NCBI GenBank assembly: GCA_947494205.1
Contig: CANLUH010000004.1
Location: 152,773 to 216,772, forward strand
From: an uncultured Flavobacteriaceae bacterium
Lineage (GTDB): Bacteria; Bacteroidota; Bacteroidia; Flavobacteriales; Flavobacteriaceae
Direction: 5' to 3'
Length of the DNA: 64,000 nucleotides
Position numbers and translations under genes: made by a program. The first letter of the stretch is position 1, and every line of letters begins with the position of its first letter. The notes beneath the pieces are model-generated. The model saw only the letters and a program-made list of their open reading frames with translations, did no database searches and was not told the DNA's origin. Of the stretch, positions 10,462-54,407 are shown piece after piece.

Positions 10462-10914
10462 ATGTCTTTAATAAAAGAACAGCTTTTTACGCAATGTTTA
10501 GCATTTATAGACAATCGTTTATTAACGGTTAAAAGCACCATGCAAGAACTACAAGAATCGCTACTTTCTGAAACTAAAAGTAGTGCCGGAGACAAACACG
10601 AAACCGGACGTGCCATGCTTCAATTAGAACGTGAAAAAGCAGGAAATCAATTAGCAGAAATACTAAAAATAAAAGAAAACCTTTCAAAAATTAATACAAA
10701 CAACACTTCAGAAACCATACACTTAGGAAGTGTCGTTTATACAACACAAGCCAATTATTATATTGCTATTAGTGCAGGAATTATTACAATAGACAATATT
10801 AATTTTTACGCCATTTCACCAATTACCCCAATAGCCAAATTATTATTAGCAAAAACAGTTAATGATACCATAACTTTTAGAACTACAACCTTTACAATTA
10901 CTAACGTTATTTAA
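10462..10914 (+). CDS. hypothetical protein
   Basis: 150-aa ORF immediately upstream of the PKS operon. It may belong to that operon, but no motif was recognised. Confidence 0.4.
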   Translation: MSLIKEQLFTQCLAFIDNRLLTVKSTMQELQESLLSETKSSAGDKHETGRAMLQLEREKAGNQLAEILKIKENLSKINTNNTSETIHLGSVVYTTQANYYIAISAGIITIDNINFYAISPITPIAKLLLAKTVNDTITFRTTTFTITNVI

Positions 10915-10970
10915 TTTTCATTTAAGACAGAATCGGCTTACCTTAGTAAAAAAACAGATTTTAGTAGTCA

Positions 10971-12110
10971 TTGAATTTAAATACTCTACATGCAGATGTT
11001 ATAATAGTTGGCGGAGGCTTAGCAGGTTTATCTTGTGCTATTCACTTATCTAAACAAAACACTTCTGTTTTACTCATAGAAAAAAATAACTATCCTAAAC
11101 ATAAGGTTTGTGGTGAATATATAAGTAACGAAGTTCTACCCTATCTTAACTTTTTGGATATTGATGTGTTTAACTTAGGTGCTAAAAAAATCAATACCTT
11201 CGAATTATCTACACAGCAAAACAAATATATAACCGCAACACTACCATTAGGCGGTTTTGGCATTAGTCGTTACTGTCTAGATAATGCAATGGTAGAAAAA
11301 GCTAAAGCGCAACAGGTTGAGATTATACAAGATACTGTTGAAGATATTCGTTTTTTAGATAATACGTTTTCAGTAGGAACAAAAAGTAATGGGACTTTAC
11401 AATCAAAAATTGTTATTGGTGCTTATGGGAAACGCGCTAATTTAGATGTAAAACTAAACCGTCGTTTTATTAAAAATAAGTCGCCGTTTTTAGCAGTAAA
11501 AACACATTTAAAAGGCGAATTCCCTTCAAATACAGTAGCACTTCATAATTTTAAAGGTGGGTATTGTGGTGTTTCGAAAGTAGAAAACAACAACATCAAC
11601 CTGTGCTATATTACGAGTTTTGAAACCTTCAAAAAACATAAAAACATTGAAGACTTTCAAGAAAAAATACTGTTTCAGAATACATTTTTAAAACAAATCA
11701 TTTCTGAAACTGAACCCGTTTTCAAACAACCCTTAACCATTAGTCAAATTTCTTTCGAAACTAAAAACCCTATAGAAAATCATATCATCATGTGTGGTGA
11801 TAGCGCTGGCATGATTCATCCATTATGCGGTAATGGTATGAGTATGGCCATACGAAGTGCACAAATGGCCTCTTTAGCGATTATTGAGTTTCTTAATAGC
11901 GATATTCCTAATAGAAAAAGAATGGAAAAACAGTATCTTAGAGCATGGAACAGTGAATTTAAAACACGTTTAACAACAGGACATATTGTTGCAAAACTAT
12001 TCAGCAAACATAAAATAGCAGAAATTTTAGTATCTGGATTAAAGCGATTTCCTAAACTATTACCATTTATCATAAAACGAACACATGGTAAAACAATGCA
12101 AGTAAAATGA
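10971..12110 (+). CDS. FAD-dependent monooxygenase/oxidoreductase (SrsC-like)
   Basis: GxGxxG motif (IIVGGGLAGLSCA). Its stop overlaps the start of the methyltransferase gene. Confidence 0.7.
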   Translation: MNLNTLHADVIIVGGGLAGLSCAIHLSKQNTSVLLIEKNNYPKHKVCGEYISNEVLPYLNFLDIDVFNLGAKKINTFELSTQQNKYITATLPLGGFGISRYCLDNAMVEKAKAQQVEIIQDTVEDIRFLDNTFSVGTKSNGTLQSKIVIGAYGKRANLDVKLNRRFIKNKSPFLAVKTHLKGEFPSNTVALHNFKGGYCGVSKVENNNINLCYITSFETFKKHKNIEDFQEKILFQNTFLKQIISETEPVFKQPLTISQISFETKNPIENHIIMCGDSAGMIHPLCGNGMSMAIRSAQMASLAIIEFLNSDIPNRKRMEKQYLRAWNSEFKTRLTTGHIVAKLFSKHKIAEILVSGLKRFPKLLPFIIKRTHGKTMQVK

Positions 12111-19175: not shown

Positions 19176-19180
19176 ATTAG

Positions 19181-19250
19181 GAAAGTACATTGGACTCGAA
19201 CCAATATTTCGGGTATGAGACCGACGATTTCCAGTTATCTTAGTACTTTC
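19181..19250 (-). tRNA. tRNA-like element with CAT-containing anticodon-like loop (degenerate; possible Met-like pseudogene)
   Basis: Perfect 7-8 bp acceptor (GAAAGTA/TACTTTC) and a good T-arm (ATTGG-TTCGAGT-CCAAT). The D-arm and anticodon stem do not pair canonically. Confidence 0.3.
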
Positions 19251-30208: not shown

Positions 30209-31237
30209 CTAATTGAATTCGTTAGAATAGGCTTTTTCGAATGCTGGACGGATGTATTTCCAGATAATTTTATCGTAGTTTTTTTTGTTTTTTATAGCAA
30301 ATAAAACTGCTGGATAGGTACAGGTTTTAAAATAACCCGCCGTCTCTCTATCTGTACTTAATTCTTTATATTCTGTCTTCGAAATAGTTTCAATAGTTTT
30401 AAATTGTTCTCTTAATTGTGTTTCTACTTTTTTTACCCATGTAAAAAATTCGTCTGGGACATCTTCAATCCACTGGGTTAATTCTCCTTCTTCCTTTAAT
30501 GTTTCCCATATGGTTAAAGATGATATTTGTGTTACAATTCTATGTAAATCTATATAATCTTCGAATTTAATTTTTACTCTAAATCCGTTTTCATATTGAA
30601 TAACAAATCCTTCTTTATTTTTCCAGTTTAATGCTTTTAATGCTCTTAAACTATTATAATGGTAGATTTCTGGTAATGGGAATCCTATATTTTTAAGAGC
30701 TTCTGCTTTACCTGTTTTAGTATCTACAATAGCAATTAATACTAAAGCTTCTTCCGTACCATAATCTACTATAATTCTGTTTTCTGGGTAAATAATTTCG
30801 AACACATAGGTTTTACTTTTATCTAAGTTTGTAATTACTGAAGCATATTTACTTTGTAACAAATGGTTTGCTTTTTTAGCTTGCTTACTTGTAAACGAGC
30901 CTCTTGTAGCAATATATGGTTTGTTTTCTAACCAATATAAAATACCTAGTGAACCATCCATTTTTTCGAATACTTTAAACGATTCGTTTGGCAAAGCACC
31001 ATAACCCACTTCTTCTACATTAAAAAATTTAGGAATAGAGTGTGCTACAACAGTATAGTTTTCGTCTAAAATTAAACCTCTACATTGTAACGTTTCCTTA
31101 GTCCAATATTGCTCGTACTGCGTTGCTTGCGTGTAGTTATAAATCCACAGATTTGCTTCTGGATGTTTACATTTATGAATGTATCCTTTAGCGATTGCGT
31201 CTTCTAATTTTTCGATGTTTAATACTGTAGGTTTCAT
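30209..31237 (-). CDS. RNA ligase, Rnl1-like (ATP-dependent tRNA repair ligase)
   Basis: Covalent nucleotidyltransferase motif I KMDGSL (T4 Rnl1 has KEDGSL); ~340 aa. Sits in an operon with Pnkp. Confidence 0.75.
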   Translation of the reverse strand: MKPTVLNIEKLEDAIAKGYIHKCKHPEANLWIYNYTQATQYEQYWTKETLQCRGLILDENYTVVAHSIPKFFNVEEVGYGALPNESFKVFEKMDGSLGILYWLENKPYIATRGSFTSKQAKKANHLLQSKYASVITNLDKSKTYVFEIIYPENRIIVDYGTEEALVLIAIVDTKTGKAEALKNIGFPLPEIYHYNSLRALKALNWKNKEGFVIQYENGFRVKIKFEDYIDLHRIVTQISSLTIWETLKEEGELTQWIEDVPDEFFTWVKKVETQLREQFKTIETISKTEYKELSTDRETAGYFKTCTYPAVLFAIKNKKNYDKIIWKYIRPAFEKAYSNEFN

Positions 31238-36731: not shown

Positions 36732-36844
36732 TAGTCCAGGTGGGATTCGAACCCACGACCCGCGGATTATGAATCTATACAGGAACTTTTATTTGTCGAA
36801 AGCGAAAAGTAATTTCGCTGCTCTAACCTCTGAGCTACTGGACT
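36732..36844 (-). tRNA. tRNA-like element (Val-TAC-like arm) with ~45-nt insertion between anticodon arm and T-arm
   Basis: Acceptor AGTCCAG/CTGGACT, D-arm GCTC-AGAGGTTA-GAGC, hairpin GCGAA-ATTACTT-TTCGC, then the insertion, then T-arm GTGGG-TTCGAAT-CCCAC. Three degenerate partial copies (repeat unit containing TATAGGAAC) lie at 36566-36735. Confidence 0.35.
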
Positions 36845-40769: not shown

Positions 40770-41822
40770 CTATAAGTTCTCTCTATTAGGGATTTCCTCT
40801 AAACTTAGCTCGAGAGCTAAGTTGATTATTTTCCTTGGTGTATATAACGTTTTTTCCAAATCACTTATTTGTAAGTTTTTCGAATTTGCTTTATAAAGAA
40901 AGCTACTGTAGCTTAATTTGGATATGCTTCTACCAAATTCATCTTTATATTTTTCTTTTAACTTTAAAGTAATTTCTTCTAATCGATTTTTTAATACTAC
41001 AATAGTCTTTAATAACTGATCAAGCCAGTTTTCAATCTCTTTCAAGAAATTCTTGACTTCAATTTCATTTTTATAGCTTAATTTTTTAATCTCATTACGA
41101 ATATGTTCAATCTTCATACCTTCCCAGTTTTTTGCTTTTAACACTGGTATTTGCCACTTTGACTGTGCTGCTTTCCAATAATCTGTTTTCACTTTTACTT
41201 GATGTATTTTAAATCCTGGAAGTTCAATAATAGTTAGATGTCCGCCATGACATGCTCCTGTATCTATACCATAAGTATTATTCTTAATTTTTGGAGTATC
41301 ACCAACGACATGATGCCCATAGATTATAGGTTTTGTTCCTTTGTAATAGTCTGACCAATATTTACCTTCTTCATATTTAGTTTCAAGATGCCTACTTCCA
41401 GAAGTTGTTCCAGCCAAAACTTCTTTCTTTTGCTCACTTAATATTTTGTCATGCTCAAAAAAAGCATGAACTATTATAGCGTCATTTGTTTCATAATAAT
41501 AAGGAAGTGTTTCTAACCATTCTTTAAATTCTTTATATTCATCAGCAAATTGAACTTTTACTATCTCTTGAGAATAACTTAAAACACCTCTTAAATGTTT
41601 TCTCTCATGATTACCCATTAACACTATTGCATTATCTCGTTTTTTAAAATAGTTATATAGTTCTAATGATTTGTTTCCTCTGTCTACAAGATCTCCGAGT
41701 GAAATTATTAAATCACTTTCGGTTATTCCTATTTGATTCGATAGTTCTATAAACTCATCATAGCATCCATGTAAATCTCCTACTATGTATGTTTTCTTCA
41801 TTTTTTTGGGTTTTAGACACAC
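40770..41822 (-). CDS. PPP-family (lambda-phosphatase-like) Ser/Thr or nucleic-acid phosphoesterase with C-terminal extension
   Basis: GDLHGCYDEF, GDLVDRGNKS and GNHE metallophosphatase motifs, plus a ~130-aa coiled-coil-like tail. Confidence 0.75.
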   Translation of the reverse strand: MCLKPKKMKKTYIVGDLHGCYDEFIELSNQIGITESDLIISLGDLVDRGNKSLELYNYFKKRDNAIVLMGNHERKHLRGVLSYSQEIVKVQFADEYKEFKEWLETLPYYYETNDAIIVHAFFEHDKILSEQKKEVLAGTTSGSRHLETKYEEGKYWSDYYKGTKPIIYGHHVVGDTPKIKNNTYGIDTGACHGGHLTIIELPGFKIHQVKVKTDYWKAAQSKWQIPVLKAKNWEGMKIEHIRNEIKKLSYKNEIEVKNFLKEIENWLDQLLKTIVVLKNRLEEITLKLKEKYKDEFGRSISKLSYSSFLYKANSKNLQISDLEKTLYTPRKIINLALELSLEEIPNRENL

Positions 41823-41861: not shown

Positions 41862-42431
41862 CTATTTTCTTTTTTCAAATGGGGGCTCCCATTTTTTCAA
41901 TTTCATGATGGCTTTTACTTCAGCATAGGATAACGGATAAAAGTCATGACAGTCTACGCCTACATCGAATGCATTCATGGTTTCATCGTCTTGTAAGCTT
42001 CCGTGCGAGTGTCCGTATAAATGCCATGTTCCTCGAAAACTGGATCGCCAAACACGCATAGCGTAGTGTAACAATATAATTTTCTGTTTACCATTTGGTG
42101 CTTCTTCATCGGCAACATTTAATTCGAAATAGTCTTTTGTCCATTCAAATCGATTAGTATTAGACATCGCTGCGCCTTCGTGATTACCTTTTATTAAATA
42201 GATTTTACCATTTAATTGCTCTAAAATACCTTTCATTCTATCGGCTTTGCACAAGCCTAAATCTCCCAAATGATAGACCTTATCATTTTTACCAATTTTA
42301 CTGTTCCATCGTTTTATAAGTTCTTGATCCATTTCTTCTACTGTATTAAATGGACGGTTAGAGAACTTTATAATATTTTCGTGACCAAAGTGATGGTCTG
42401 ATGTAAAATATACATCTGTTGCATACTTCAT
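41862..42431 (-). CDS. calcineurin-like metallophosphoesterase
   Basis: DHHFGHE, GDLG and GNHE motifs; 189 aa. Confidence 0.7.
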   Translation of the reverse strand: MKYATDVYFTSDHHFGHENIIKFSNRPFNTVEEMDQELIKRWNSKIGKNDKVYHLGDLGLCKADRMKGILEQLNGKIYLIKGNHEGAAMSNTNRFEWTKDYFELNVADEEAPNGKQKIILLHYAMRVWRSSFRGTWHLYGHSHGSLQDDETMNAFDVGVDCHDFYPLSYAEVKAIMKLKKWEPPFEKRK

Positions 42432-42665
42432 TGTATTTATATTTTTTAATGTGATTGTCTAAAAACTATGCAACTCATTCATAATATGATTCTTTTTGAA
42501 TTCTCGTTTTGAATTACTCACTCTAATGTTTGCCTATATTATTGGTTTTAAATAAGCTTCGCTATTTTCTTAAAACCTTCCGATTTTTTCATTCTGAAAA
42601 AACCACCTTCCTTCAAATGAAGGAAGGAATAAACATCTGAATTTATTTTAAACAATCTCTATTGA

Positions 42666-43199
42666 TTATTTTTTCTTTTTACTCTTCTTATTCTTCGCTT
42701 TTGTTTTCTTCTTACTTGGTTTCATTTTACTCTTTATTCTGCTTATTTCAATATCAATATAGCTAATAAAAGAATCGTTATAACCAAATTGTTTAGCTGT
42801 CTTAAAGGCTTTTATAGCGTTTTTATACTGTTGTTTTATTTCAAACAATTGTCCTTGCTTATCCCAAATACAGCCTTTATCTATTCCTTTTACAGTTAAT
42901 GCAAAATCGATTAGTTTTTGTGCTTCATTAAAATCGTCATTCCACAATAATGTTTGTATATACTTATAATATACTTTTTGAAAATCCATTTTATTAGCTA
43001 ATGCTTCTGCATAATATATTTTTGCTTGTTCGTAATCTCCTAATTGCTCTGCTTGTATTTGCCCCATTAAATATAAAGCATATACATTTTCAGATTCGTA
43101 TGACAAAGCGTAGTTTAAATTTTCTACAGCTTCTTCTAACTCGTATGGATAAGCATCTATAGCTTTAAGCACGTAATTATTTAATAAACTTGTTTCCAT
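42666..43199 (-). CDS. TPR-repeat protein with lysine-rich C-terminus
   Basis: TPR-like Y/A/L periodicity and a C-terminal KKKTKAKNKKSKKKK stretch. Confidence 0.55.
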   Translation of the reverse strand: METSLLNNYVLKAIDAYPYELEEAVENLNYALSYESENVYALYLMGQIQAEQLGDYEQAKIYYAEALANKMDFQKVYYKYIQTLLWNDDFNEAQKLIDFALTVKGIDKGCIWDKQGQLFEIKQQYKNAIKAFKTAKQFGYNDSFISYIDIEISRIKSKMKPSKKKTKAKNKKSKKKK

Positions 43200-43296
43200 C
43201 GTTTTAAGTTTTTAAGATTAAAAGTAAGCGTGTCTCGATACACTTTTTATTCGTTTCTCTTAGAAAAACCACTCGACATGACGTACTTTTAAACTA

Positions 43297-43989
43297 TTAT
43301 TTTAATTCATTACGCAGGTCATTTTTTAATGTACTGCGTTGTTTTTTATAAGTTTTCACAACTTTGTTTTTCTTAAAATCGGATCCTTTAAAAACCTGTA
43401 TTGGGTTACCTCGTTCTAATTTTAAATGGTTTTCCCATTGATTTTTAATACTAGATTTAAGTGCTTTAAGTTGTAACTCGTTTACTTTTTCTTGTAAACG
43501 TATTCTTGCTATTTTTTTATTTTGATGTTGTGAGCGGCTATCCATTACTAACACTTGCGTATTAGTTGGTTTATGGATAGCCCTAATAGCGGAGCTCACT
43601 TTATTTACATGTTGCCCTCCTGGCCCTGAACTTCTTGTAGCTTGATAGTTAATATCTTTTTCATGTATCTGAAATTGTTGTTTTTGTTCAATTTCGTATA
43701 GCCCAACAAACCAGTTTTTACGTTTATGTTTTGGCCTAAATGTTGAAACTCCTATCCATTGTATTGTGCCTTTCCATTGATTTAAAAATGTACTTAGATC
43801 TTTTCCTTCCAACTGAATCGTGACAGATTGTAATGTCATGTTTTCAATTCCTTTTTCTCTTTGTAATATTTTATAATCTATAGTATTGCTTTTTACGGCG
43901 TCTAAAAATTTCTTTAATACTTGTGCTACAACCCAGCAACATTCTGCTGGACCTCGACCAGAGGTTATTTGTACTATTTTTGTTTCCAA
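43297..43989 (-). CDS. prfH: peptide chain release factor H-like (PrfH), GGQ-domain protein
   Basis: SSGPGGQHVNKVSSAIRAIHKPTNT...RSQHQNK matches the class-I RF catalytic domain. At 230 aa it lacks RF domain 1, as PrfH does. Located two genes from rtcB. Confidence 0.8.
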   Translation of the reverse strand: METKIVQITSGRGPAECCWVVAQVLKKFLDAVKSNTIDYKILQREKGIENMTLQSVTIQLEGKDLSTFLNQWKGTIQWIGVSTFRPKHKRKNWFVGLYEIEQKQQFQIHEKDINYQATRSSGPGGQHVNKVSSAIRAIHKPTNTQVLVMDSRSQHQNKKIARIRLQEKVNELQLKALKSSIKNQWENHLKLERGNPIQVFKGSDFKKNKVVKTYKKQRSTLKNDLRNELK

Positions 43990-43993
43990 TGTT

Positions 43994-44548
43994 TTATGTT
44001 TTTTCTAAAGGATTTTTAGAAAGTAATACATTACCTACTGGACTTTTACCTTTTTCAATGAGTTGTAACGCGGCTTTTACTGCCCAACATTTATCGCTAG
44101 AATGAATGTTAGAGTAATAGCTTAATAGTGTTTTAGGCTCTACTATTTTCCAGCCGTTTACTTCTATAGCTTCTACAGTAGCCGATTCGAAAAAGTCTAT
44201 AGTTACTCTTATTTGTTTTCCAGAGCTTAACCAATCAATCTTTTCGTAACGTCTAAAATTCTCATTACTTGGCATGTGATCGTATCTTGTCCACACTTTT
44301 TTAAAGCCTTCTTGTGCTAATATTACCATAACTTCTGCAACGTCTTTTGGACGCACAAAAATGTCTATATCCTTATGATCATGTGCATGTTTATATTCTG
44401 TATGGTCTTCTGGTGACATAAAATGCCATGCCCAACCTCCAGAGATTATAATCCATGATTTTAATTTATTTAAAATGTCCAAACCTTGTTCTATTCTATA
44501 GTTTGGCCATTGTTCTCCGTATCTTTTTATGTTATGATTTGCTCCCAT
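43994..44548 (-). CDS. hypothetical protein, possible minimal nucleotidyltransferase
   Basis: The ISGGWAW...HKDIDIFVRP pattern loosely resembles a GS/DxD NTase core. Assignment is weak. Confidence 0.35.
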   Translation of the reverse strand: MGANHNIKRYGEQWPNYRIEQGLDILNKLKSWIIISGGWAWHFMSPEDHTEYKHAHDHKDIDIFVRPKDVAEVMVILAQEGFKKVWTRYDHMPSNENFRRYEKIDWLSSGKQIRVTIDFFESATVEAIEVNGWKIVEPKTLLSYYSNIHSSDKCWAVKAALQLIEKGKSPVGNVLLSKNPLEKT

Positions 44549-44677
44549 TTTTTTTAGTCTTTAGCTATTAGCGTTAATTGAAATTCTACATTGCGTTAGG
44601 GATTGAGGCATTTGTTGAAGCTCCTCGCAGAGAGCGACTGCCAAAAGCCCGACCCTTGTGGTAACGCCAAAAACTTA

Positions 44678-46069
44678 TTACCTATCCATTCTCACAATTT
44701 TTGGCGTAAACTTACCTACAACCTCTACCAATTCTAATTGATTTTGCATGACTTTTTCTATGTTTTTATAAGCCATTGGTGCTTCGTCTATTCCGCCACC
44801 TATTAATGAGACTTCATGTTTTTGTAATTCTTTTTTAACTGCACTTTGCGTTAACTTCATTTTACATTGTCGTCTAGACAATAATCGTCCAGCGCCGTGC
44901 GATGCCGATTGTAAACTGTCCTTATTTCCTAATCCTCTTACTATAAATCCTGGCGCTGTCATAGACCCTGGGATAATACCTAATTCTCCTTTTTTGGCTG
45001 GTGTTGCTCCTTTTCTATGTACTATACATTCTTCACCATTTACCTCTTGTTTCCAAGCAAAATTGTGATGATTTTCTATTTTAGCAATTGGTCTTTCTCC
45101 TAATAGTTTTGCTATTCTTTTATGAATATCATCATGGCAAGCTTGCGCATAATCTCCAGCTAAATTCATGGCCAACCAATATTCTTGTCCGTCGTGCGTA
45201 TTTAAATCTAACCATGCTAAATGCTGTACATGTTTTGGCAACGGACATTGTTTTGTTGCTAAATAGGTATAGTGTTTTGCGATGTTAGCACCTAATCCTC
45301 GTGATCCACTGTGCGATAAAACGCCTAGATATTCTCCTATTGGTAAATCCCATTCGTTGTTTACATCTAGAATACTTACTTCTCCAAATTCTACAAAATG
45401 GTTTCCTCCTCCAGAGGTTCCTAATTGCTTATAGGCTTTATCTTTTAAGCGTTTTACTAACGGAATGGTTTTAAATTCGTCACGCTCAAAAACTGGGCTA
45501 TCATGTTTTATTTTATGCGTTTCGTACATTCCAAATTTGGTATGTTCGGATAAAATATTTTCCAATTGATGCTTTTTCCCCTTTAAGTAAGAAGCTTTTA
45601 CTGGATAAATGGTTAAACACATTCTGCACCCAATATCTACACCTACCCCATAAGGTATTACTGCATTTTTTGTGGCTAATACACCACCAATTGGTAAGCC
45701 ATAACCTACATGTGCATCTGGCATTAAAGCCCCTGCAACAGAAATTGGCAATTTTAAAGCATCGTATAATTGGTATTTTGCCTGCTCTTCAATTTCGTTT
45801 TCGCCATAAATATGGAATGGTGCTCTGTGAGTGTTTAACTTTTGTTTTGTTACATGTACAGGATCTAACAGACTTTCTGCTATTTTCCCCCAAACGCCAT
45901 CACCTTTATAGTGTTCTGGATTTAATAATACCTTTTTTGCTTCTGTTAATATTTTTTCTTTTTTTACTCGTTTCTGATAACGATTAATCTGACCTAAAGT
46001 CACATTAATACTATTGTTCTTTGGAAAGCCTAATTTTATTAAGTCTTTTCCGCTTAATTTTTTTCCCAT
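44678..46069 (-). CDS. rtcB: RNA 3'-phosphate/5'-OH ligase RtcB
   Basis: 463 aa with the C-terminal SASHGAGRLLSRRQ signature and an internal conserved His-rich region typical of RtcB. Confidence 0.9.
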   Translation of the reverse strand: MGKKLSGKDLIKLGFPKNNSINVTLGQINRYQKRVKKEKILTEAKKVLLNPEHYKGDGVWGKIAESLLDPVHVTKQKLNTHRAPFHIYGENEIEEQAKYQLYDALKLPISVAGALMPDAHVGYGLPIGGVLATKNAVIPYGVGVDIGCRMCLTIYPVKASYLKGKKHQLENILSEHTKFGMYETHKIKHDSPVFERDEFKTIPLVKRLKDKAYKQLGTSGGGNHFVEFGEVSILDVNNEWDLPIGEYLGVLSHSGSRGLGANIAKHYTYLATKQCPLPKHVQHLAWLDLNTHDGQEYWLAMNLAGDYAQACHDDIHKRIAKLLGERPIAKIENHHNFAWKQEVNGEECIVHRKGATPAKKGELGIIPGSMTAPGFIVRGLGNKDSLQSASHGAGRLLSRRQCKMKLTQSAVKKELQKHEVSLIGGGIDEAPMAYKNIEKVMQNQLELVEVVGKFTPKIVRMDR

Positions 46070-46114: not shown

Positions 46115-47497
46115 TTAATACATTGACATTCTTAAAATTAAATACGCAATCCAGAAGATTACTTTTAAAATTAACACCAAATTATAATCACCAGCTTCGT
46201 TTCCAGACATCTGTCTTCTTTCTATTAATCTGGCATGTGCAGTTCTTTCTTGATTTTGGGGCTGATATGGTCTTTCATACCCCATTTCTCTTTTGCGTCT
46301 AACTTGCGAATTACTAATCCAAAGGTTTATTAACTCGACAGATTTACTATCAATTTCTTGATTGCATTTTGCCTTAGCTTGAACAATTTCAAAACTTGGC
46401 AATTCTATTTCAACAGTTGCTAGTCGTTTCATTGGTTCGCCTTCAACTTCTCGCCTTAAAGAAAAAATGGAACACCTACCTTCATCACAATCTTCAGCAT
46501 ATTCAGAAACACAGTGCTGCATTTCATTACCTTCATCATATAAATCCCCTGAATTTAAAAGCTCTTCTGTTTTATAAACAACAGTTTTGCCTTCCACATT
46601 TTCTTCAATCCGTAAATGTTTAATCCCTGAAGATTTCCACGAAAAAACGTCTCCTTTTTCTTTTAAATAAACATTACGATGCCATTCTTGAGTTTGATTT
46701 AACAAAACGTCTAATGTTCTATTTTTAATTGAATAGGATTGATTTTCACGGTATTTATATGCTAAATAATCGACTACTTCATTTAGTTCATTAGTATTTA
46801 AATTTTCTTCTTTTGAAAAAAACTGAACTACCGATGTCCAAAAATCTTCCTGAGCTTCTCGAAATATTGATAATCTTGAAAAAGCTATTATTTTCGCTGT
46901 TTTTGTTGAAGCTCCAAAACCTAATGCCTGCGCATAACGTAAAGCAGCATTTACAGACATAATACATGTTATATTTCTAAATTCATGCGCCATTTTAACT
47001 GTTAGGTTTATTGGCATATTAGGCAAACTTTTTACACTTTTTCCTTTTCCTAATTGAATATACCAAAGCATCTGTTTTTTATTATTTATAAAAAATGATT
47101 GCTCTAAAAACTTTGGCGTTTCATAGAGTGCAAAACAGTACTTAATTATCGAACTTAGTAGCTCTGCTTCCTCTATTGAATCCTTTCTCCAGCCTTCGAT
47201 ATCCCTTTTAATTCTATCTCCAAAACCACTGATATTGTGTAAAACTTCAACATTATTATAATTTCTTAATAAAGCATAACATTTTTGATTATATAACTGA
47301 ATCAAAAGCTTTTTAAAAACATCTCTTTTCCATATGTGTCTTTTCTTACTCGTTTTAGAGAAAAATTCTCTTAGCATTGATTCTATTGTCCCTTTATAAC
47401 GGGTTGGTTGATTTTTTTCGTTATATATTCTTTCAACTAATTTTACATAACTACCTTTTTCTATATTCTTGTTTTTTATTTCCCAATTTGTTTTCAT
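46115..47497 (-). CDS. hypothetical protein (460 aa; possible PcfJ-like/zincin-like EMQHC motif)
   Basis: Long ORF with a C-terminal GNEMQHCVSEYAEDC motif. No secure family assignment. Confidence 0.4.
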   Translation of the reverse strand: MKTNWEIKNKNIEKGSYVKLVERIYNEKNQPTRYKGTIESMLREFFSKTSKKRHIWKRDVFKKLLIQLYNQKCYALLRNYNNVEVLHNISGFGDRIKRDIEGWRKDSIEEAELLSSIIKYCFALYETPKFLEQSFFINNKKQMLWYIQLGKGKSVKSLPNMPINLTVKMAHEFRNITCIMSVNAALRYAQALGFGASTKTAKIIAFSRLSIFREAQEDFWTSVVQFFSKEENLNTNELNEVVDYLAYKYRENQSYSIKNRTLDVLLNQTQEWHRNVYLKEKGDVFSWKSSGIKHLRIEENVEGKTVVYKTEELLNSGDLYDEGNEMQHCVSEYAEDCDEGRCSIFSLRREVEGEPMKRLATVEIELPSFEIVQAKAKCNQEIDSKSVELINLWISNSQVRRKREMGYERPYQPQNQERTAHARLIERRQMSGNEAGDYNLVLILKVIFWIAYLILRMSMY

Positions 47498-48494
47498 TTT
47501 AAAGTTCGCTACTAAAGGTTATTGCCCATGTAAAACCACTTAAAATCTTAACACATAGTATGAATTTATATGTGTATGAAATTATTTTCTAATTTGACTT
47601 TTGCTACGTAATGAAAAAGTATTGTTTTAATTAATAATTATTTTGAACTTGTGTATTATATATAAGCTCAAGAAAACTTTATTTATAAGCTTCTTTTTGG
47701 AATATTAATATAGCATCGTGTTTTTATTTTATGCTTTCTTTCATAAACTGAAATAGAATGCATAACCGTTTTACACCATTACTTAGCTTATTATACTATT
47801 TTTACTTAGCACATAAATAGCCCTATAGATAAGACTCTTAGGAATTTGACGTAGCTAGTTTTTATTTGGTTACCCTCAAAATTTCTCTTTACCTGCTTAA
47901 TAAACGTCGGACTTCCTTTTGTCTTTATTTTTTATGTTTTCTGGTTTCTTTAGACGTTTTAATAATTGTTTGCCTGTTTAGATGATTCCAGTATCACTCC
48001 CGATGTGGAATCGGTATTTAGATTGTATGTAAGTGTTTCATTTTTAAATTTTGTGTTGTGAATTGCATTTTGAATCGTGTCGACTACGACCAAACTACCA
48101 TTCTGGTTGTGTTGTTTCATACCAATTACAACTTAAATCGAGCTAAATAAAACGCCCTTTTTTCCTTTATTTATTATTAAAAAAAGAAACCGTAACTATG
48201 GCTATGATTTATTTTTTATAATTCAACTAAAGAAAAAAATCATCATTTTATTTTAATCTCTTTTTAAATTATAATTGGTATAACTGTTTGGATGTTTTTT
48301 AGCAGACTTGCTAATGACTGAAAACAAAAAACCCGAAACAGTTTTTAAATTGCTTCGGGTTTTTCATTTATCTATGAAAAGTGGTATTAACTATACGCTC
48401 GAAGCACAACAAAAGGTAGAATTCCTTTTGGATCGGTTTGATTAGATATAAATAAACTCATACTTCGATTTTAGTTAAACTTAATTTTGTTGCT

Positions 48495-48931: not shown

Positions 48932-51001
48932 TTATAATACTACTTGGTTAAAAACCGTTTCTGTTACTTTATTATACCTTAATAAAGTTAAAGATATTGT
49001 TCCTCTACCACTAGTTAAGGTCCTTAAATCGGAGATGTAACCAAATGTTTCTAATAAAGGTACTTGGGCACGTATCTTTCGTTTAGTTCCATCTTCTTTT
49101 ATTTCCATAATAATGCCTCTTTTTTTATTAATGTCTGATGTTACTTTTCCTAAATAATCTTCAGGACATTCAATTTCGGCATTCATTATAGGTTCTAACA
49201 GCATAGGTTTTGTTAAAGTTGCTACTTGTTTAAAACCATGTTTAGCAACAATTTCAAAATCTAATGGGCTAGAATCTTCTGCATGAACCTTTCCGTCTAA
49301 TAAAACCACACGCATCGTTTCTACAGGGTAACCTGCTAATATTCCAGATTGCATAGCTTCTAAAAAGCCTTTTTCAACATTTGGAATAAATTCTTTAGGA
49401 ATGTTTCCACCTTTAATTTCATTTACAAATTCTAATCCCTTTTGTTTTTCTACACTAGGACCCAATGTAAATTTAATTTGGGCGAATTGTCCGTTTCCTC
49501 CATTTTGTTTTTTAAAGACTTCTGTATGTTCTACGGTTGTCTGTAATCGTTCTTTAAAGGATACTTTTGGATTCCCTTTTTGAATGGCTACTCCAAATTC
49601 TGATTTCAACTTTTCTAATCGTACATCTAAATGTAACTCTCCCATACCATGCAAAATGGTTTGCCCTGTTTGCTGATCGAAAGACATTTTTAATGATGGA
49701 TCTTCGTCTAAAATTTTAGCAATAGCTTCTCCAAAATGTTTTTCGTCATCTTTAGATTTTGGTTCCACTGCTATACTTATAACAGGTTCTGACACATCAA
49801 TAGATTCTAGAGTAAATGCATCGTCTAGTTCACACAACGTATCTCCAGTTTTTGCATTTTTTAATCCTATTAATGCTACAATATCTCCTGCTTTAGCTTC
49901 TTTTAGTTCTATAAATTTATCGGCTTGAATTTTTAAAATTCTACTTACTCTATTTTTTTGTTGAGATCTAGAATTTAAAATAGTCTCGCCTACTTTAATA
50001 GCACCAGCATACACTCTAACCATAGCTAAACTTCCTACGTAATTATCTGAAACAACCTTAAATACTAATCCTGTAAATGGTGTACTAACAGAACGTAATC
50101 TACGTTCTTCTTCATTATTTTTATTTACACCTTTTATATACTTAATATCATCCGGCGCTGGTAAGTATTGCGAAATAGCGTTTAATAATGGCTGCACACC
50201 TATATACTTAAACGATGAACCACAAAGCACTGGTACTGCTTGTTGTTTTATTGTAATAGCTCTAATAGCATGCATTAGTTCTGTATTACTAATCGGTTCA
50301 TTTTCCAAATACTTAATCAGTATAGTTTCATCAAAACCAGAAACTGTTTCTATAAGTTGTTCTTTCCATTGCAACAGTAATGGCTTTAAATCTTCAGTGA
50401 CTACTTTCTCTTCCCAAGTATGTCCTAAATCATTCGTATTCCAATACATTGCTTTTTCTGTTATAAGATCAATAATGCCTATAAAATCATCACCTTCTCC
50501 AATAGGAATTTGAAGCACCATTGGTACTGTATTTAATTCTTGTTGAATAGCACTTACAACTTTAAAAAAGTCTGCACCGATTCTATCCATTTTATTAATA
50601 AAACACAATTTTGGAATACCATATTTATTAGACTGACTCCAAACGGTTTCAGATTGCGGCTCTACACCTGATGATGCACAAAATAAAGCTACAACACCAT
50701 CTAATATTCTTAATGAACGTTCTACTTCTATAGCAAAATCTATATGCCCAGGCGTATCTATTATATTAATTTGATGTACCATCTCATTATAACTCCAATC
50801 TGCTGAAATTGCCGATGACGAAATTGTTATGCCTCGTTTTGCTTCTTGAGGATCACTATCGGTTACTGTATTACCATCATCTATATTTCCTGGTTTATGT
50901 ATGGTTCCTGTATAATACAATATACGTTCTGTTGTTGTCGTTTTTCCTGCATCTACATGGGCTATTATTCCTATATTTCTAAGTTGTTTATCTCGTTTCA
51001 T
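48932..51001 (-). CDS. elongation factor G paralog (EF-G-like translational GTPase)
   Basis: 689 aa. G1 motif AHVDAGKTTTTERILYYTG and DTPGHIDF, followed by the full EF-G domain II-V length. Longer than RF3. Confidence 0.85.
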   Translation of the reverse strand: MKRDKQLRNIGIIAHVDAGKTTTTERILYYTGTIHKPGNIDDGNTVTDSDPQEAKRGITISSSAISADWSYNEMVHQINIIDTPGHIDFAIEVERSLRILDGVVALFCASSGVEPQSETVWSQSNKYGIPKLCFINKMDRIGADFFKVVSAIQQELNTVPMVLQIPIGEGDDFIGIIDLITEKAMYWNTNDLGHTWEEKVVTEDLKPLLLQWKEQLIETVSGFDETILIKYLENEPISNTELMHAIRAITIKQQAVPVLCGSSFKYIGVQPLLNAISQYLPAPDDIKYIKGVNKNNEEERRLRSVSTPFTGLVFKVVSDNYVGSLAMVRVYAGAIKVGETILNSRSQQKNRVSRILKIQADKFIELKEAKAGDIVALIGLKNAKTGDTLCELDDAFTLESIDVSEPVISIAVEPKSKDDEKHFGEAIAKILDEDPSLKMSFDQQTGQTILHGMGELHLDVRLEKLKSEFGVAIQKGNPKVSFKERLQTTVEHTEVFKKQNGGNGQFAQIKFTLGPSVEKQKGLEFVNEIKGGNIPKEFIPNVEKGFLEAMQSGILAGYPVETMRVVLLDGKVHAEDSSPLDFEIVAKHGFKQVATLTKPMLLEPIMNAEIECPEDYLGKVTSDINKKRGIIMEIKEDGTKRKIRAQVPLLETFGYISDLRTLTSGRGTISLTLLRYNKVTETVFNQVVL

Positions 51002-52100: not shown

Positions 52101-54407
52101 ATGAAAAACATTCTTTTCTGCTTCTTATTTTTAATACTTCCGTTTCAATTTGCAAACGCACAATTAAATGCTTCTGAAAAAGAAATATTGTCTAAAGCAC
52201 TAGTAAAAAGGGTTAATGATTTAAGAAAAAAACTTAGCAAGCATCCTCTTAAAAGAGATACAGATTTAGTAAAAGCAGCACAATTACATTCGGATTACAT
52301 GGTTAAAAAAAACTCTTTAAACCATAACCAAATAGGCACAGAGTTTCCTAAACCGAAAGACCGTATTTTACATTTCAACAAAAGCTTTATTAGTTTTGGA
52401 GAAAATGTTTTATATAGTAAACCTGTACGGTATCCTCTAAACAAAAAAGCACTAAACAAATTAGCTTTCGATATGTTTCGAGCTTGGAAAGCCTCCCCTG
52501 GTCATTATGCAAACATGATTTCGGATGTATTTACTTATGGTGATTTCGCCTTTACACTACACCCAAAATCTAAACGTGTTTTTGCGACTCAAGTTTTTGG
52601 TAAAAAAGGTTACATTATTCCTAATCAATTGTCCTCTAATGCTTTTTCTGTAAAGAAAGGAGACAATACCTGTGCGAGCCTCATAGGAAATAACAGTAAT
52701 ATTATTGTAAATATTGGCAATAGAATTAGTGTTAAAAATGGAGAGGTTATTTATGGCGGCCATAAAATTGAAACCATAAAACGGATTTTAAAAAATGAAA
52801 ATGACGGCATCGCTGTAGATTTAATTGCTAGAGACCAAATGACATGTGGTGAGGACAATATATTAGATGCTTCAGAAATTTACGATGGGGTTATGCTAAA
52901 ACCAATATATAGGGATGCTGTTTTTTCTAATAATATGGCAAAAAACAACAGACGTCTTATTGTTTCCTTAGGTAAAATTCCAGAACATTTAAAGTCTAAA
53001 AAAATAAGTCCTAATATTATTGTTATTAAAGATGGCAAAAAATGTAGCTATACGCAACCTGCATATATTCCTTCTGGTCGGTACGATTTACGTGCCATAG
53101 CGCCTATTATAAATAGACCAAATATTGCTTTAAAAACAGAAGGCGTTAATAGTATTCATCAAATTCATTTTGATTTTGAAACAGGAAAAACAACGCCTAT
53201 AAAAGATCCTATTATAGACTTCAACATTGGTAAATTACATTCTATAGATATTAAAAGTTTTACTTCTGTAGATGGTACTGCATCTGCAAATGCCGTTTTA
53301 CATAAAAAAAGAGCTGAATACATTAATTCCTACTTAACAAGAAACATTAAAACTGAACATGTACCTATTGTTATTGAGGCTAAAGAAAACTGGGATTTAT
53401 GTAATTATCAAATTGAACTTTTGGGCTTAGAAAACACTTATAATTCTCAAAAAGACATTCGTAATTATATTAAAAAAAATGCTTCCGGTACTTGGAAAAA
53501 TGCTTTACAAAAGCAACGCCAATCTAAAGCCATTTTATACCAATATGGTACTTGGGACACATCACATTCAAATTATTTAAACTATAATTTAATGGATGCT
53601 TTGCTTAATAATAATTTTGATTTAGCAAACAAGGCGTTAGCCACAATGTACGATAGCGAGCAGAGTAACCTCTTTTTAAATGAAGAATTCATTATTAATA
53701 AATTATTTGATAAAAAAGAATTGGTACAAAACGTATCTGCTTTATTACTTAAAAACATTGGTTATTACGACTTAGATAATGTCGTCTTTTTTGTTAGAAA
53801 CTGGTTATCGCAACCCGAACTGTTATCTAAAGATGCTCAAAAAAACTTATTGAATTTATATGCTATTACTAGCAGACAATTATTGAGGTATTGGGATACT
53901 AGCATCGAAGATTTCTCGAAAGTTTTACATCCAAAAAAGGTAGAACCTTTATTTGAAAGTTATAAATCTGAAGACACTGTTAATCCTTTGTTTTTAAACT
54001 TTCACATGGCAAGTATAGAATATTATGCGCAAATAAATTACAGTTCTAAAATTGATGAATCTTTCGATTTTATCACCGACTACTTTAGAAGTGTTTCGCT
54101 TACCATTCAAGATGATATTGACTTGGCTTTATTTTTTAATAGCTGGAGTATGTATCACTTAACAAAAGAATCTTTATTACATCGTTATCATGACAAGACA
54201 CTAAACGAAGCAGCTTGTTTTTTATTGCTTCAAACGTATGTAGCAGACAATAGCGACTCTAATCCTGAGATTCTATTCAATTTAAATAAGCTAGCAATTA
54301 AATTTAATAAAACCCGCTGGTGTAAATGGATTAATAAAGACTTTCAGAACCTAAGTAACGAAAGCATAAAAAACCTTTATTGTAAAACTTGTAATACAGA
54401 AAATTAA
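52101..54407 (+). CDS. secreted CAP/SCP-domain protein with large C-terminal region
   Basis: Signal peptide. The N-terminal ~150 aa resemble a CAP (PR-1-like) domain (HSDYMV...HNQ...GENV). The remaining ~600 aa have no recognised motif. Confidence 0.5.
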   Translation: MKNILFCFLFLILPFQFANAQLNASEKEILSKALVKRVNDLRKKLSKHPLKRDTDLVKAAQLHSDYMVKKNSLNHNQIGTEFPKPKDRILHFNKSFISFGENVLYSKPVRYPLNKKALNKLAFDMFRAWKASPGHYANMISDVFTYGDFAFTLHPKSKRVFATQVFGKKGYIIPNQLSSNAFSVKKGDNTCASLIGNNSNIIVNIGNRISVKNGEVIYGGHKIETIKRILKNENDGIAVDLIARDQMTCGEDNILDASEIYDGVMLKPIYRDAVFSNNMAKNNRRLIVSLGKIPEHLKSKKISPNIIVIKDGKKCSYTQPAYIPSGRYDLRAIAPIINRPNIALKTEGVNSIHQIHFDFETGKTTPIKDPIIDFNIGKLHSIDIKSFTSVDGTASANAVLHKKRAEYINSYLTRNIKTEHVPIVIEAKENWDLCNYQIELLGLENTYNSQKDIRNYIKKNASGTWKNALQKQRQSKAILYQYGTWDTSHSNYLNYNLMDALLNNNFDLANKALATMYDSEQSNLFLNEEFIINKLFDKKELVQNVSALLLKNIGYYDLDNVVFFVRNWLSQPELLSKDAQKNLLNLYAITSRQLLRYWDTSIEDFSKVLHPKKVEPLFESYKSEDTVNPLFLNFHMASIEYYAQINYSSKIDESFDFITDYFRSVSLTIQDDIDLALFFNSWSMYHLTKESLLHRYHDKTLNEAACFLLLQTYVADNSDSNPEILFNLNKLAIKFNKTRWCKWINKDFQNLSNESIKNLYCKTCNTEN

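What the first reader, a model, noticed from the sequence alone, without database searches (positions are those of the whole stretch)
43297..46069. PrfH-NTase?-RtcB module (rRNA/tRNA break repair coupled to a release-factor paralog)
A 230-aa GGQ release-factor paralog lacking the codon-recognition domain (PrfH-type) lies two genes from a full RtcB. RtcB-PrfH pairs are thought to rescue ribosomes with nuclease-cleaved rRNA.

Here the pair is split by a 184-aa possible minimal nucleotidyltransferase and is embedded in the tRNA/RNA-repair island. This suggests a more elaborate module than the known two-gene pair.
Basis: partly seen in the sequence, partly recalled or inferred. Interest (0 to 1): 0.7.

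Follow-up and report, generated by a model that had tools for sequence, protein, structure and literature searches.

The report
Extended PrfH-RtcB ribosome repair operon
This marine Flavobacteriaceae chromosome carries the flavobacterial form of the PrfH–RtcB system that frees and re-seals toxin-cut ribosomes, with a small uncharacterised nucleotidyltransferase and a TPR protein as fixed extra partners; the module is real and strongly conserved, but this kind of enlarged gene cluster was already noted by computational analysis in 2019.

Summary
On the minus strand lie an intact RtcB RNA ligase (44678-46069), a 184-aa protein (43994-44548) and a true PrfH (43297-43989). PrfH passes NCBI's PrfH model and matches the solved Capnocytophaga gingivalis PrfH over its full length, including the basic C-terminal tail. 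The 184-aa protein has the motifs and predicted fold of a minimal Pol-beta nucleotidyltransferase (NTase). It belongs to no curated family and is not an RlaP.

The link is not chance. In all 87 fetched loci that encode a relative of this NTase, prfH is next to it. rtcB is there too, except in two loci where the held DNA starts at the NTase gene. The usual order is X-RtcB-NTase-PrfH-TPR.

The unit is larger than the finding's coordinates. It includes the TPR gene (42666-43199) and a PcfJ-like gene (46115-47497). The PcfJ-like gene sits where the usual basic protein X survives only as a pseudogene.

The window also holds a real RNA-repair and tRNA island.

Burroughs and Aravind (2019) described TPR and Pol-beta NTase genes accreting around PrfH-RtcB. 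PrfH with the C-terminal tail was characterised in 2026. So this is a member of a known kind. What the NTase does remains untested.

The parts
47652..48116 (-). Decayed remnant (pseudogene) of 'X'. X is the ~230-aa, very basic (pI ~10) protein that precedes and overlaps rtcB in most related loci.
   Evidence: blastn and tblastn against close relative L006. The alignment shows the start codon changed from ATG to AAG, a ~160-nt internal deletion and a missing 3' end. No ORF longer than 26 aa remains in that frame.
46115..47497 (-). PcfJ-like protein, 460 aa, with a conserved EGxxMxHCVxEY...C motif and a conserved hydrophobic C-terminal helix. It occupies the slot just upstream of rtcB that X fills elsewhere.
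   Evidence: Pfam PF14284 PcfJ, 56 bits. The same PcfJ-like-then-rtcB arrangement occurs in 7 other loci, none of which has X. There is no profile similarity to X.
44678..46069 (-). RtcB 3'-phosphate/5'-OH RNA ligase, 463 aa, with an N-terminal extension of roughly 90 aa (pI 9.7) relative to the 379-position E. coli-type RtcB model.
   Evidence: Pfam RtcB 276 bits. Active-site positions are conserved against Pyrococcus RtcB. It is below the cut-off of TIGR03073 release_rtcB (148 versus 272), and NF007153 aligns only to residues 92-458. pI.
44591..44668 (-). A ~78-nt GC-rich structured repeat inserted in the rtcB/NTase spacer. It is a passenger element, not specific to the module.
   Evidence: It is present in the same spacer in only 4 of the 87 other module loci. 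The core sequence is found on 114 metagenome contigs, none flanked by the module's RtcB or NTase. Covariation supports nested helices.
43994..44548 (-). 184-aa minimal Pol-beta-superfamily nucleotidyltransferase of an uncurated, narrow family. It has a His-rich KHAHDHKDID active-site strand.
43297..43989 (-). PrfH of the PrfH-CT subfamily. It is a GGQ peptidyl-tRNA hydrolase with a ribosome-damage recognition domain and a basic C-terminal tail. It has a TTG start 4 nt after the NTase stop codon.
   Evidence: TIGR03072 223 bits, above the 166.65 cut-off. 9mor_A match over residues 1-226, E 7.5e-79. N50 and GGQ are read directly from the sequence.
42666..43199 (-). TPR protein, 177 aa, with a Lys-rich C-terminal tail (KSKMKPSKKKTKAKNKKSKKKK).
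   Evidence: Pfam TPR_19 and other TPR models. It lies directly after prfH in 78 of 87 loci, and 48 of those 78 have a strongly basic tail.
42606..42627 (-). Terminator-like hairpin (9-bp stem followed by a T-run). Probable 3' end of the transcription unit.
   Evidence: Consensus scan. This is a pattern match only.
41862..42431 (-). Metallophosphoesterase, 189 aa. A facultative neighbour that is probably a separate transcription unit.
   Evidence: Pfam Metallophos. phrog_547 phosphoesterase, E 6.5e-53. It lies near the module in only 7 of 87 loci.
40770..41822 (-). Lambda/NinI-type and Pnkp-phosphatase-like metallophosphoesterase, 350 aa. A lineage-specific neighbour.
   Evidence: Pfam Metallophos. 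Partial NCBIfam matches to ApaH and to the bacterial Pnkp phosphatase domain. Found only in the closest relatives L006 and L007.

Best explanation
This is the Flavobacteriia form of the PrfH-RtcB ribosome rescue-and-repair operon. It is transcribed as PcfJ-like, RtcB, NTase, PrfH, TPR.

[quoted passage not shown] PrfH enters the empty A site, recognises the damaged site and uses GGQ to release the peptide. In PrfH-CT proteins the basic tail also lets the factor rescue non-stop ribosomes. After the subunits separate, RtcB re-seals the 3'-phosphate and 5'-OH ends.

Inferred here: the 184-aa enzyme is an active template-independent nucleotidyltransferase that works with RtcB in the RNA-healing step. 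It would restore or tag the 3' end of cut and trimmed rRNA or tRNA. This is the role proposed for RlaP enzymes in other repair cassettes.

Also inferred: the TPR protein with its lysine tail, and the basic X protein (here replaced by a PcfJ-like protein), dock the enzymes on the ribosome or RNA.
For: PrfH identity and subfamily: with PMC12829566.

RtcB is intact.

NTase fold and catalytic motifs.

Strict genomic coupling:
- 87 of 87 NTase loci have prfH adjacent; the dominant order is X-RtcB-NTase-PrfH-TPR.
- Genes are tightly spaced or overlapping.
- In Aquimarina the same gene set appears in a different order (RtcB-PrfH-TPR-NTase), which argues for selection on the set rather than inherited synteny.

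The NTase appears to follow RtcB rather than PrfH, on a small sample:
- Two Capnocytophaga PrfH-CT loci have X and PrfH but no RtcB, NTase or TPR match within 8 kb.
- A homologue only 40% identical sits directly upstream of an RtcB gene.

All partner proteins are basic (pI 9-10), as expected for ribosome or RNA binders.

The module often lies within 10 kb of other RNA-repair genes in marine Flavobacteriaceae: RlaP, Pnkp, Rnl2, a DEDD exonuclease and a second RtcB.

Published proposal of the same role for this kind of NTase: PMC6514570, section 2.4.
Against: No experiment exists on the NTase, TPR, X or PcfJ-like proteins.

An NTase leaves a 3'-OH end, whereas RtcB needs a 3'-phosphate. The RlaP authors raise the same chemical mismatch (PMC12776372).

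The NTase is not markedly basic (mean pI 7.4).

Its two nearest structural neighbours modify antibiotics, not RNA.

One distant homologue lacks two of the three catalytic Asp residues.

Operon structure is inferred from spacing and one terminator-like hairpin only. Bacteroidota promoters are not covered by the scan.

The 'NTase follows RtcB' inference rests on three loci.
Confidence: 0.7

Rival explanations
1. The NTase is a small-molecule (antibiotic) nucleotidyltransferase. It would inactivate an aminoglycoside- or lincosamide-like compound that attacks the ribosome. The operon would then combine drug inactivation with ribosome rescue, and the NTase would not act on RNA ends.
Confidence: 0.1
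2. The NTase acts on a protein rather than on RNA. It could prime or regulate RtcB (an Archease-like activator or a nucleotidylating enzyme), or it could nucleotidylate the invading toxin or a ribosomal component.
For: The NTase tracks RtcB in the few informative loci. This RtcB is outside the proteobacterial RtcB2 equivalog and has an extra basic N-terminal segment. An unusual invariant His/Cys cluster lies beside the DxD motif.
Against: There is no precedent in this fold subgroup among the top structural hits, and no direct evidence. RtcB enzymes guanylylate themselves (general knowledge).
Confidence: 0.1
3. The 184-aa gene is a hitch-hiker, for example a MenT- or AbiEii-like toxin or a mobile gene, with no functional tie to PrfH and RtcB.
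For: It has structural similarity to MenT1, MenT3 and MenT4 toxins. The locus is a hot spot for insertions: a dispersed repeat, the PcfJ-like gene, and Ntn-hydrolase-like or zinc-ribbon genes in other genomes.
Against: Co-occurrence is 87 of 87 across several genera of Flavobacteriaceae plus Chryseobacterium (Weeksellaceae), at amino-acid identities from 94% down to about 60%. The set is retained when the gene order changes. There is a 4-nt junction with prfH. No PADLOC or PHROG hit.
Confidence: 0.04
4. The 230-aa ORF is a truncated housekeeping prfA or prfB pseudogene.
For: It contains the RF-1 GGQ domain.
Against: It passes the PrfH equivalog cut-off but scores 105 against 370 for prfB and 68-74 against 400-423 for prfA. 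It is collinear over its full length with solved PrfH structures. There are thousands of homologues of the same length.
Confidence: 0.01

Closest known systems
E. coli rtcB2-prfH operon (Tian et al. PNAS 2022, PMC9304027; Maviza et al. 2022, PMC9223846)
   Same: A GGQ release-factor paralogue lacking domain 1, encoded with an RtcB ligase. The demonstrated sequence is rescue of colicin E3- or CdiA-damaged 70S ribosomes followed by re-ligation of 16S rRNA. The window's PrfH matches EcPrfH at E 3.3e-42.
   Different: The E. coli unit has two genes. Its PrfH is 204 aa with no C-terminal tail. Its RtcB2 belongs to the TIGR03073/PRK09588 type (~379 aa), a model the window's RtcB fails (148 versus 272 bits). 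It has no NTase, TPR, X or PcfJ-like genes.
PrfH-CT of Capnocytophaga gingivalis (Tian et al. Sci Adv 2026, PMC12829566; PDB 9mor, 9mq4)
   Same: Same subfamily (Flavobacteriia cluster, 225-250 aa). The full-length alignment includes the basic tail and N50. It is expected to rescue both damaged and non-stop ribosomes.
   Different: In the two Capnocytophaga loci fetched, prfH is flanked by X (and a zinc-ribbon gene in one). No rtcB, NTase or recognisable TPR lies within 8 kb. The paper does not discuss accessory genes. In the window, X is a pseudogene.
Extended RFH(PrfH)-RtcB neighbourhoods of Burroughs and Aravind 2019 (PMC6514570, section 2.4, Fig. 4G-I)
   Same: They describe accretion of (1) a TPR gene, (2) a previously uncharacterised Pol-beta NTase unrelated to RlaP, (3) a zinc-ribbon protein and (4) a charged helical protein without homologues. 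These match the TPR, the NTase, the zinc-ribbon gene seen in 8 loci, and X found here.
   Different: That description is computational only, and its supplementary gene lists were not available to me. I found no mention there of a PcfJ-like gene replacing X, of an Ntn-hydrolase-like insert, or of the linkage to a larger Rnl1/Rnl2/Pnkp/RlaP/tRNA island.
RlaP (PF10127) RNA-ligase-associated NTases (PMC12776372)
   Same: Pol-beta NTases encoded beside RNA ligases, including RtcB. They are proposed to add nucleotides to damaged RNA 3' ends before ligation.
   Different: The 184-aa protein gives no PF10127 hit. Two true RlaP genes in the same window score 99 and 239 bits. It is smaller and has a distinct His-rich motif.
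Minimal NTases LnuA, ANT(2'')-Ia and MenT/TglT tRNA-modifying toxins
   Different: Only 12-17% identity. No sequence-level match to any solved structure, even with a family profile. The genomic context is different.

Membership tests
PrfH (peptide chain release factor H, TIGR03072 / IPR017509) | Scores above the curated equivalog cut-off and below the prfA and prfB cut-offs | tested here: met
   223.2 bits against a 166.65 cut-off. prfB 105 against 370; prfA 68-74 against 400-423.
PrfH (peptide chain release factor H, TIGR03072 / IPR017509) | GGQ domain present; release-factor domain 1 absent; remodelled recognition domain retained | tested here: met
   SSGPGGQHVNK is in the sequence. It aligns to prfB positions 118-316 only. 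It is collinear with PrfH structures 9mor and 7sa4.
PrfH (peptide chain release factor H, TIGR03072 / IPR017509) | Encoded with an RtcB ligase | tested here: met
   rtcB is two genes upstream on the same strand. The arrangement is conserved in the related loci.
PrfH (peptide chain release factor H, TIGR03072 / IPR017509) | Peptidyl-tRNA hydrolysis on ribosomes with a cleaved decoding centre | not testable with these tools
   Shown only for the E. coli and C. gingivalis proteins (PMC9304027, PMC12829566).
PrfH-CT subfamily | 225-250 aa with a conserved basic C-terminal tail; Flavobacteriia cluster; N50 | tested here: met
   230 aa. The tail FKKNKVVKTYKKQRSTLKNDLRNELK aligns with the CgPrfH tail to residue 226, and N50 is present. 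Nearest relatives are Flavobacteriaceae.
RtcB RNA ligase (PF01139) | Family HMM above threshold, with metal-binding Asp/Cys/His residues and the GMP-accepting His | tested here: met
   276 bits against a cut-off of 27. DIGC, NHF, HSGSRG, HHN and SHGAGR align with the Pyrococcus RtcB catalytic positions.
PrfH-associated RtcB2 equivalog (TIGR03073 release_rtcB / NF007153) | Scores above the curated cut-off | tested here: not met
   147.9 against 271.8 and 183.9 against 407. This is a different RtcB clade with an extra N-terminal segment, so it works like RtcB2 but is not a member of that equivalog.
Pol-beta superfamily nucleotidyltransferase | hG[GS] ... [DE]x[DE] ... third carboxylate, on the alpha/beta NTase fold | tested here: met
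Pol-beta superfamily nucleotidyltransferase | Nucleotidyl transfer activity and substrate | not testable with these tools
   No experimental data were found for this family.
RlaP (PF10127) | Match to the family HMM | tested here: not met
   No hit for the window protein or for any of 26 family members. The positive controls in the same window score 99.5 and 239 bits.
ANT(2'') (PF10706) / NTP_transf_5 (PF14907) | Score at or above Pfam's gathering threshold | tested here: not met
   18.1 against 21 and 18.0 against 31.2. 9 and 18 of 26 members match weakly and none reaches threshold.
Extended RFH-RtcB system (Burroughs and Aravind 2019) | TPR gene and Pol-beta NTase gene adjacent to RFH-RtcB | tested here: met
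   Both are present in the window and conserved: TPR in 78 of 87 loci, NTase by construction of the survey.
Extended RFH-RtcB system (Burroughs and Aravind 2019) | Zinc-ribbon protein and/or charged helical protein without homologues | tested here: not met
   No zinc-ribbon gene is in the window. The charged protein X is only a decayed remnant. A PcfJ-like gene sits in its place.

The most novel reading that the evidence does not exclude
The 184-aa enzyme founds a new class of RtcB-partnered RNA-end-healing or RNA-tagging nucleotidyltransferase. It would be needed when the toxin-cut 16S rRNA or tRNA end has been trimmed. X and the membrane-anchored PcfJ-like protein would be interchangeable adaptors that bring the repair enzymes to damaged ribosomes. 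Flavobacteria would then run a five-protein ribosome repair machine, and the experimentally studied two-protein system would be only its core.
Probability: 0.3. Interest if true: 0.6.

Novelty: new member of a known kind. Interest (0 to 1): 0.38.

Why it matters
PrfH-RtcB is the only known pathway that both frees and mends a ribosome whose decoding centre has been cut by a toxin. All experiments so far used two proteins. In Flavobacteriia the genes for a nucleotidyltransferase, a TPR protein and a basic protein are held together with them as tightly as the two core genes are to each other. This suggests that repair in vivo needs more steps: end restoration, docking, and perhaps membrane localisation. 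The NTase is small, soluble-looking and confidently modelled, so it is an easy biochemical target. For genome annotation, the family is currently labelled 'hypothetical protein' and could be named.

Tried and rejected
- Phage origin. The window looked phage-like at first (21 tRNA genes, low GC, weak hits to a 735-kb uncultured phage). I rejected this because of 76-95% nucleotide synteny with a closely related metagenome contig, 84-90% identical NTase orthologues in Bizionia, Lacinutrix and Winogradskyella genome contigs, and housekeeping flanking genes.
- Sequence searches of the NTase against solved structures, as a single sequence and as a family profile, found nothing. PADLOC and PHROGs also found nothing for the NTase, X or TPR.
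- Profile-profile comparison of X with the PcfJ-like protein showed no relationship (probability 0.1). The swap is therefore non-homologous.
- Structure prediction of the PcfJ-like protein failed. The single-sequence model has pLDDT 35.6 and was not searched; only the C-terminal helix is confident.
- I first suspected the GC-rich 78-nt element between rtcB and the NTase gene was a module-specific RNA, by analogy with Y RNA in rsr-rtcB operons. I rejected this because it occurs on 114 metagenome contigs, none with the module's RtcB or NTase beside it.
- Exact-sequence look-ups of the window's own NTase and PrfH found no contig on record. The source organism is known only as an unnamed NCBI contig of 425,962 bp, close to Pontimicrobium and Winogradskyella.
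- The supplement of PMC6514570 and the 2016 Burroughs and Aravind paper were not available. The afdb50 fold library was not available.
- The two look-ups of distant NTase homologues P0161 and P0125 gave contigs too short to show context.
Full report
**What is at the coordinates.** The minus strand carries a tight run of ORFs:
- a PcfJ-like protein, 46115-47497, 460 aa
- RtcB, 44678-46069, 463 aa
- a 184-aa ORF, 43994-44548
- a 230-aa ORF, 43297-43989, with a TTG start 4 nt after the preceding stop
- a TPR protein, 42666-43199, 177 aa
- two metallophosphoesterases, 41862-42431 and 40770-41822
- DUF6331, followed by a tRNA array

The finding's coordinates span exactly the prfH-to-rtcB stretch.

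**PrfH.** The 230-aa protein scores 223.2 bits on NCBI's PrfH equivalog TIGR03072 (cut-off 166.65). It scores far below the cut-offs for prfB (105 against 370) and prfA. Against solved structures it aligns over residues 1-226 with C. gingivalis PrfH (9mor_A, E 7.5e-79) and with E. coli PrfH (7sa4, E 3.3e-42). The N-terminal match confirms the TTG start. GGQ, N50 and the basic C-terminal tail are all present.

It therefore belongs to the PrfH-CT subfamily. Tian et al. (PMC12829566) found this subfamily almost only in Flavobacteriia. They showed it releases peptides from ribosomes cut at A1493/G1494 and also from non-stop ribosomes. The refuting scenario in the finding, a truncated prfA or prfB, is excluded. 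One detail is wrong: PrfH lacks release-factor domain 1, not the codon-recognition region, which it keeps in remodelled form (PMC6514570).

**RtcB.** It scores 276 bits on Pfam RtcB. The Asp/Cys/His metal ligands and the GMP-accepting His align with Pyrococcus RtcB. It fails the proteobacterial 'release_rtcB' equivalog (148 against 272 bits). It also has about 90 extra basic N-terminal residues relative to the 379-position E. coli-type model. It should do the RtcB2 job but is not a member of that equivalog.

**The 184-aa protein.**
- Pfam gives only sub-threshold hits: NTP_transf_5 and ANT(2''), E about 3e-3. 18 and 9 of 26 family members respectively show these hits, and none reaches threshold. 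NCBIfam, PADLOC and PHROGs give nothing.
- The family is narrow: 584 clusters at 90% identity and 111 representatives at 50% among 1.84 billion proteins. Sources usually label it 'hypothetical protein'.
- An alignment of 26 members shows invariant S36, G38, D60 and D62 and nearly invariant G37 and D118. This is the Pol-beta NTase signature. There is also an unusual invariant His/Cys set: H42, H49, H54, H56, H58, H149 and C154.
- The AlphaFold model is confident (pLDDT 88.4, pTM 0.84).
- It is not an RlaP. There is no PF10127 hit, while two real RlaP genes in this window score 99 and 239 bits.

The 'possible minimal nucleotidyltransferase' reading is supported. The substrate is unknown.

**Is the three-gene arrangement meaningful?** Exact-protein look-ups gave 7 loci. 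A scan of one genome per species found 234 stretches encoding a relative, and the best 80 were fetched with 10-kb flanks. I scored all 87 loci by tblastn with the window's proteins.
- Every locus has prfH next to the NTase gene.
- rtcB is present in 85. In the other two (L001, L002) the held DNA begins at the NTase gene; L014, a longer fetch of the same contig as L001, shows an rtcB match about 200 nt upstream of it.
- TPR follows prfH in 78.
- The dominant order, in 38 loci plus variants, is X-RtcB-NTase-PrfH-TPR. X is a ~200-250-aa, very basic protein (pI ~10) with no Pfam family.
- Junctions are short or overlapping.
- In one Aquimarina locus the same set appears as X-RtcB-PrfH-TPR-NTase. 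The set is kept when the order changes.

The loci span several genera of Flavobacteriaceae plus Chryseobacterium, with NTase identities down to about 60%. This meets the 'hardening' criterion stated in the finding.

**Which partner does the NTase follow?** Two Capnocytophaga PrfH-CT loci, one with a PrfH 92% identical to the experimentally studied protein, have X (plus a zinc-ribbon gene in one) and PrfH. They have no rtcB, NTase or recognisable TPR within 8 kb. Conversely, a homologue only 40% identical to the NTase lies immediately upstream of an RtcB gene, whose N-terminus carries MPDVH...DIGCG. On this small sample the NTase tracks RtcB. That places it in the RNA-sealing step rather than the peptide-release step.

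**How this window differs from its relatives.** The window is syntenic at 76-95% nucleotide identity with a metagenome contig, L006. There, X (230 aa) overlaps the rtcB start. In the window X survives only as a remnant at about 47652-48116. Its start codon is mutated, about 160 nt are deleted and the 3' end is missing. The PcfJ-like gene sits between the remnant and rtcB.

This is not a one-off. Seven other loci have a PcfJ-like gene directly upstream of rtcB and no X. The two proteins are unrelated. The PcfJ-like proteins share an HC...C motif and a conserved hydrophobic C-terminal helix.

Other genomes carry further inserts between the NTase gene and prfH: a 313-aa Ntn-hydrolase-like protein (AAT/CBAH) in 8 loci and a ~200-aa zinc-ribbon protein in 8 loci. 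A terminator-like hairpin follows the TPR gene at 42627-42606. The likely unit is therefore PcfJ-like-RtcB-NTase-PrfH-TPR. The two phosphoesterases are facultative neighbours, found near the module in 7 and 2 of 87 loci.

**Context.** The 'tRNA/RNA-repair island' claim is right. The window holds:
- 21 tRNA genes
- an Rnl2 ligase, 21831-22829, which passes TIGR02307
- two RlaP NTases
- a DEDD exonuclease, 26908-27471
- a T4-type Pnkp, 29307-30188
- an Rnl1-like ligase, 30209-31237
- an RNaseH-like protein

In other marine Flavobacteriaceae the module is often within 10 kb of some of these genes: the DEDD exonuclease in 16 loci, RlaP in 8, DUF434 in 9 and a second RtcB in about 14. In Chryseobacterium it sits among ordinary metabolic genes. 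The module is self-contained and only loosely tied to the island.

**Mechanism.** The first steps were shown experimentally for orthologues. A toxin cuts h44. PrfH recognises the damage and releases the peptide, and the C-terminal tail adds non-stop rescue. The ribosome is taken apart and RtcB re-ligates the 16S rRNA (PMC9304027, PMC12829566).

The remaining steps are inferred:
- The NTase acts on RNA 3' ends alongside RtcB, restoring or marking trimmed ends.
- TPR, X or the PcfJ-like protein act as basic docking factors.

The main objection is chemical. NTase products end in 3'-OH while RtcB needs 3'-phosphate, the same problem raised for RlaP (PMC12776372). A small-molecule substrate is the chief rival, because the closest folds include antibiotic NTases.

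**Comparison with the literature.** Burroughs and Aravind 2019 (PMC6514570) already list a TPR gene, a 'previously uncharacterized' Pol-beta NTase unrelated to RlaP, a zinc-ribbon protein and a charged helical protein as accretions around RFH-RtcB. They propose the RlaP-like role. The experimental PrfH papers do not mention these genes. No paper in the held library combines PrfH with this NTase beyond that one.

**Verdict.** The system is a new member of a known, computationally described kind. There is one minor undescribed twist, the PcfJ-like gene replacing X. The open and readily testable question is what the NTase does.

Noticed in passing
window 44591-44668 (- strand), in the rtcB/NTase spacer: A ~78-nt GC-rich element (GGCGTTACC...GTCGCTCTCTGCGAGGAGCTTCAACA...TAACGC). 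It is 97-99% identical in the same spacer of L011 and L018, although the flanking genes are far more diverged. Its 27-nt core occurs on 114 marine metagenome contigs in unrelated contexts. An alignment of 91 copies shows nested helices with strong covariation (for example one pair is GC 40, AU 38, CG 11; covariation score 0.277 against 0.072 in shuffles, 0 of 500 shuffles as high). Rfam 15 has no match at E<=1. It looks like an undescribed structured dispersed repeat, RNA or MITE/REP-like, of marine Flavobacteriaceae.
   Followed up: partly
window 43200-43296, in the prfH/TPR spacer: A second insertion of about 93 nt relative to close relative L006, where this spacer is 4 nt. It has only weak 44-nt matches in L044 and L046. 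It may be another small repeat.
   Followed up: no
window 21831-31237 (- strand): A dense RNA-repair cassette: Rnl2-family ligase (21831-22829, passes TIGR02307), RlaP-domain protein (23942-25012), full RlaP (25994-26740), DEDD/RNase T-like exonuclease (26908-27471), T4-type polynucleotide kinase-phosphatase (29307-30188) and Rnl1-like ligase (30209-31237). Unknown ORFs and tRNA genes are interspersed.
   Followed up: partly
window 36732-36844 and 19180-19249 (- strand): Two odd tRNA-like calls. Rfam's tRNA model matches a 113-nt stretch at 52 bits that ARAGORN does not report; it may contain an insertion or intron. ARAGORN reports a 'tRNA-???' with a two-base anticodon loop call at 19180-19249.
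   Followed up: no
window 48932-51001 (-), 52101-54407 (+): A solitary EF-G gene that passes the EF-G equivalog (832 bits against 659) and a 768-aa CAP-domain ORF. Both lie in stretches absent from the otherwise syntenic relative L006, where about 0.6 kb and about 0 kb occupy those positions. This is an EF-G gene outside any visible str operon, about 3 kb from a ribosome-rescue module.
   Followed up: partly
L008, L017, L019, L022, L023, L041, L048 (about 10550-11620) and L010 (12791); L009, L020, L025, L060, L064, L074, L081, L086: In other genomes, extra genes are inserted between the NTase gene and prfH. One is a 313-324-aa Ntn-hydrolase-like protein (Pfam AAT, 51 bits; CBAH weak) in 8 loci; in L010 it lies downstream of the module. 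The other is a ~200-aa multi-CxxC zinc-ribbon protein in 8 loci. The Ntn-hydrolase partner is not in the list quoted from the 2019 paper.
   Followed up: partly
L202 and L203 (Capnocytophaga PrfH-CT loci): The lineage whose PrfH-CT was studied experimentally has X-(zinc ribbon)-PrfH with no rtcB, NTase or recognisable TPR within 8 kb. X is therefore the most persistent partner of PrfH-CT, and it is the one gene that has decayed in this window.
   Followed up: partly
L207 36-797 (protein P0125): A distant NTase homologue (44% identity) is fused to a C-terminal zinc ribbon. It has Val in place of two of the three catalytic Asp residues (DHKDVVIH, TVVFF), so it is probably inactive.
   Followed up: no
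window 46115-47497; A5 alignment: All eight PcfJ-like proteins placed upstream of rtcB end in a conserved hydrophobic helix (LVLKIIFWILYFILR), the only confidently modelled part. This suggests a tail-anchored membrane protein in a ribosome-repair operon.
   Followed up: partly
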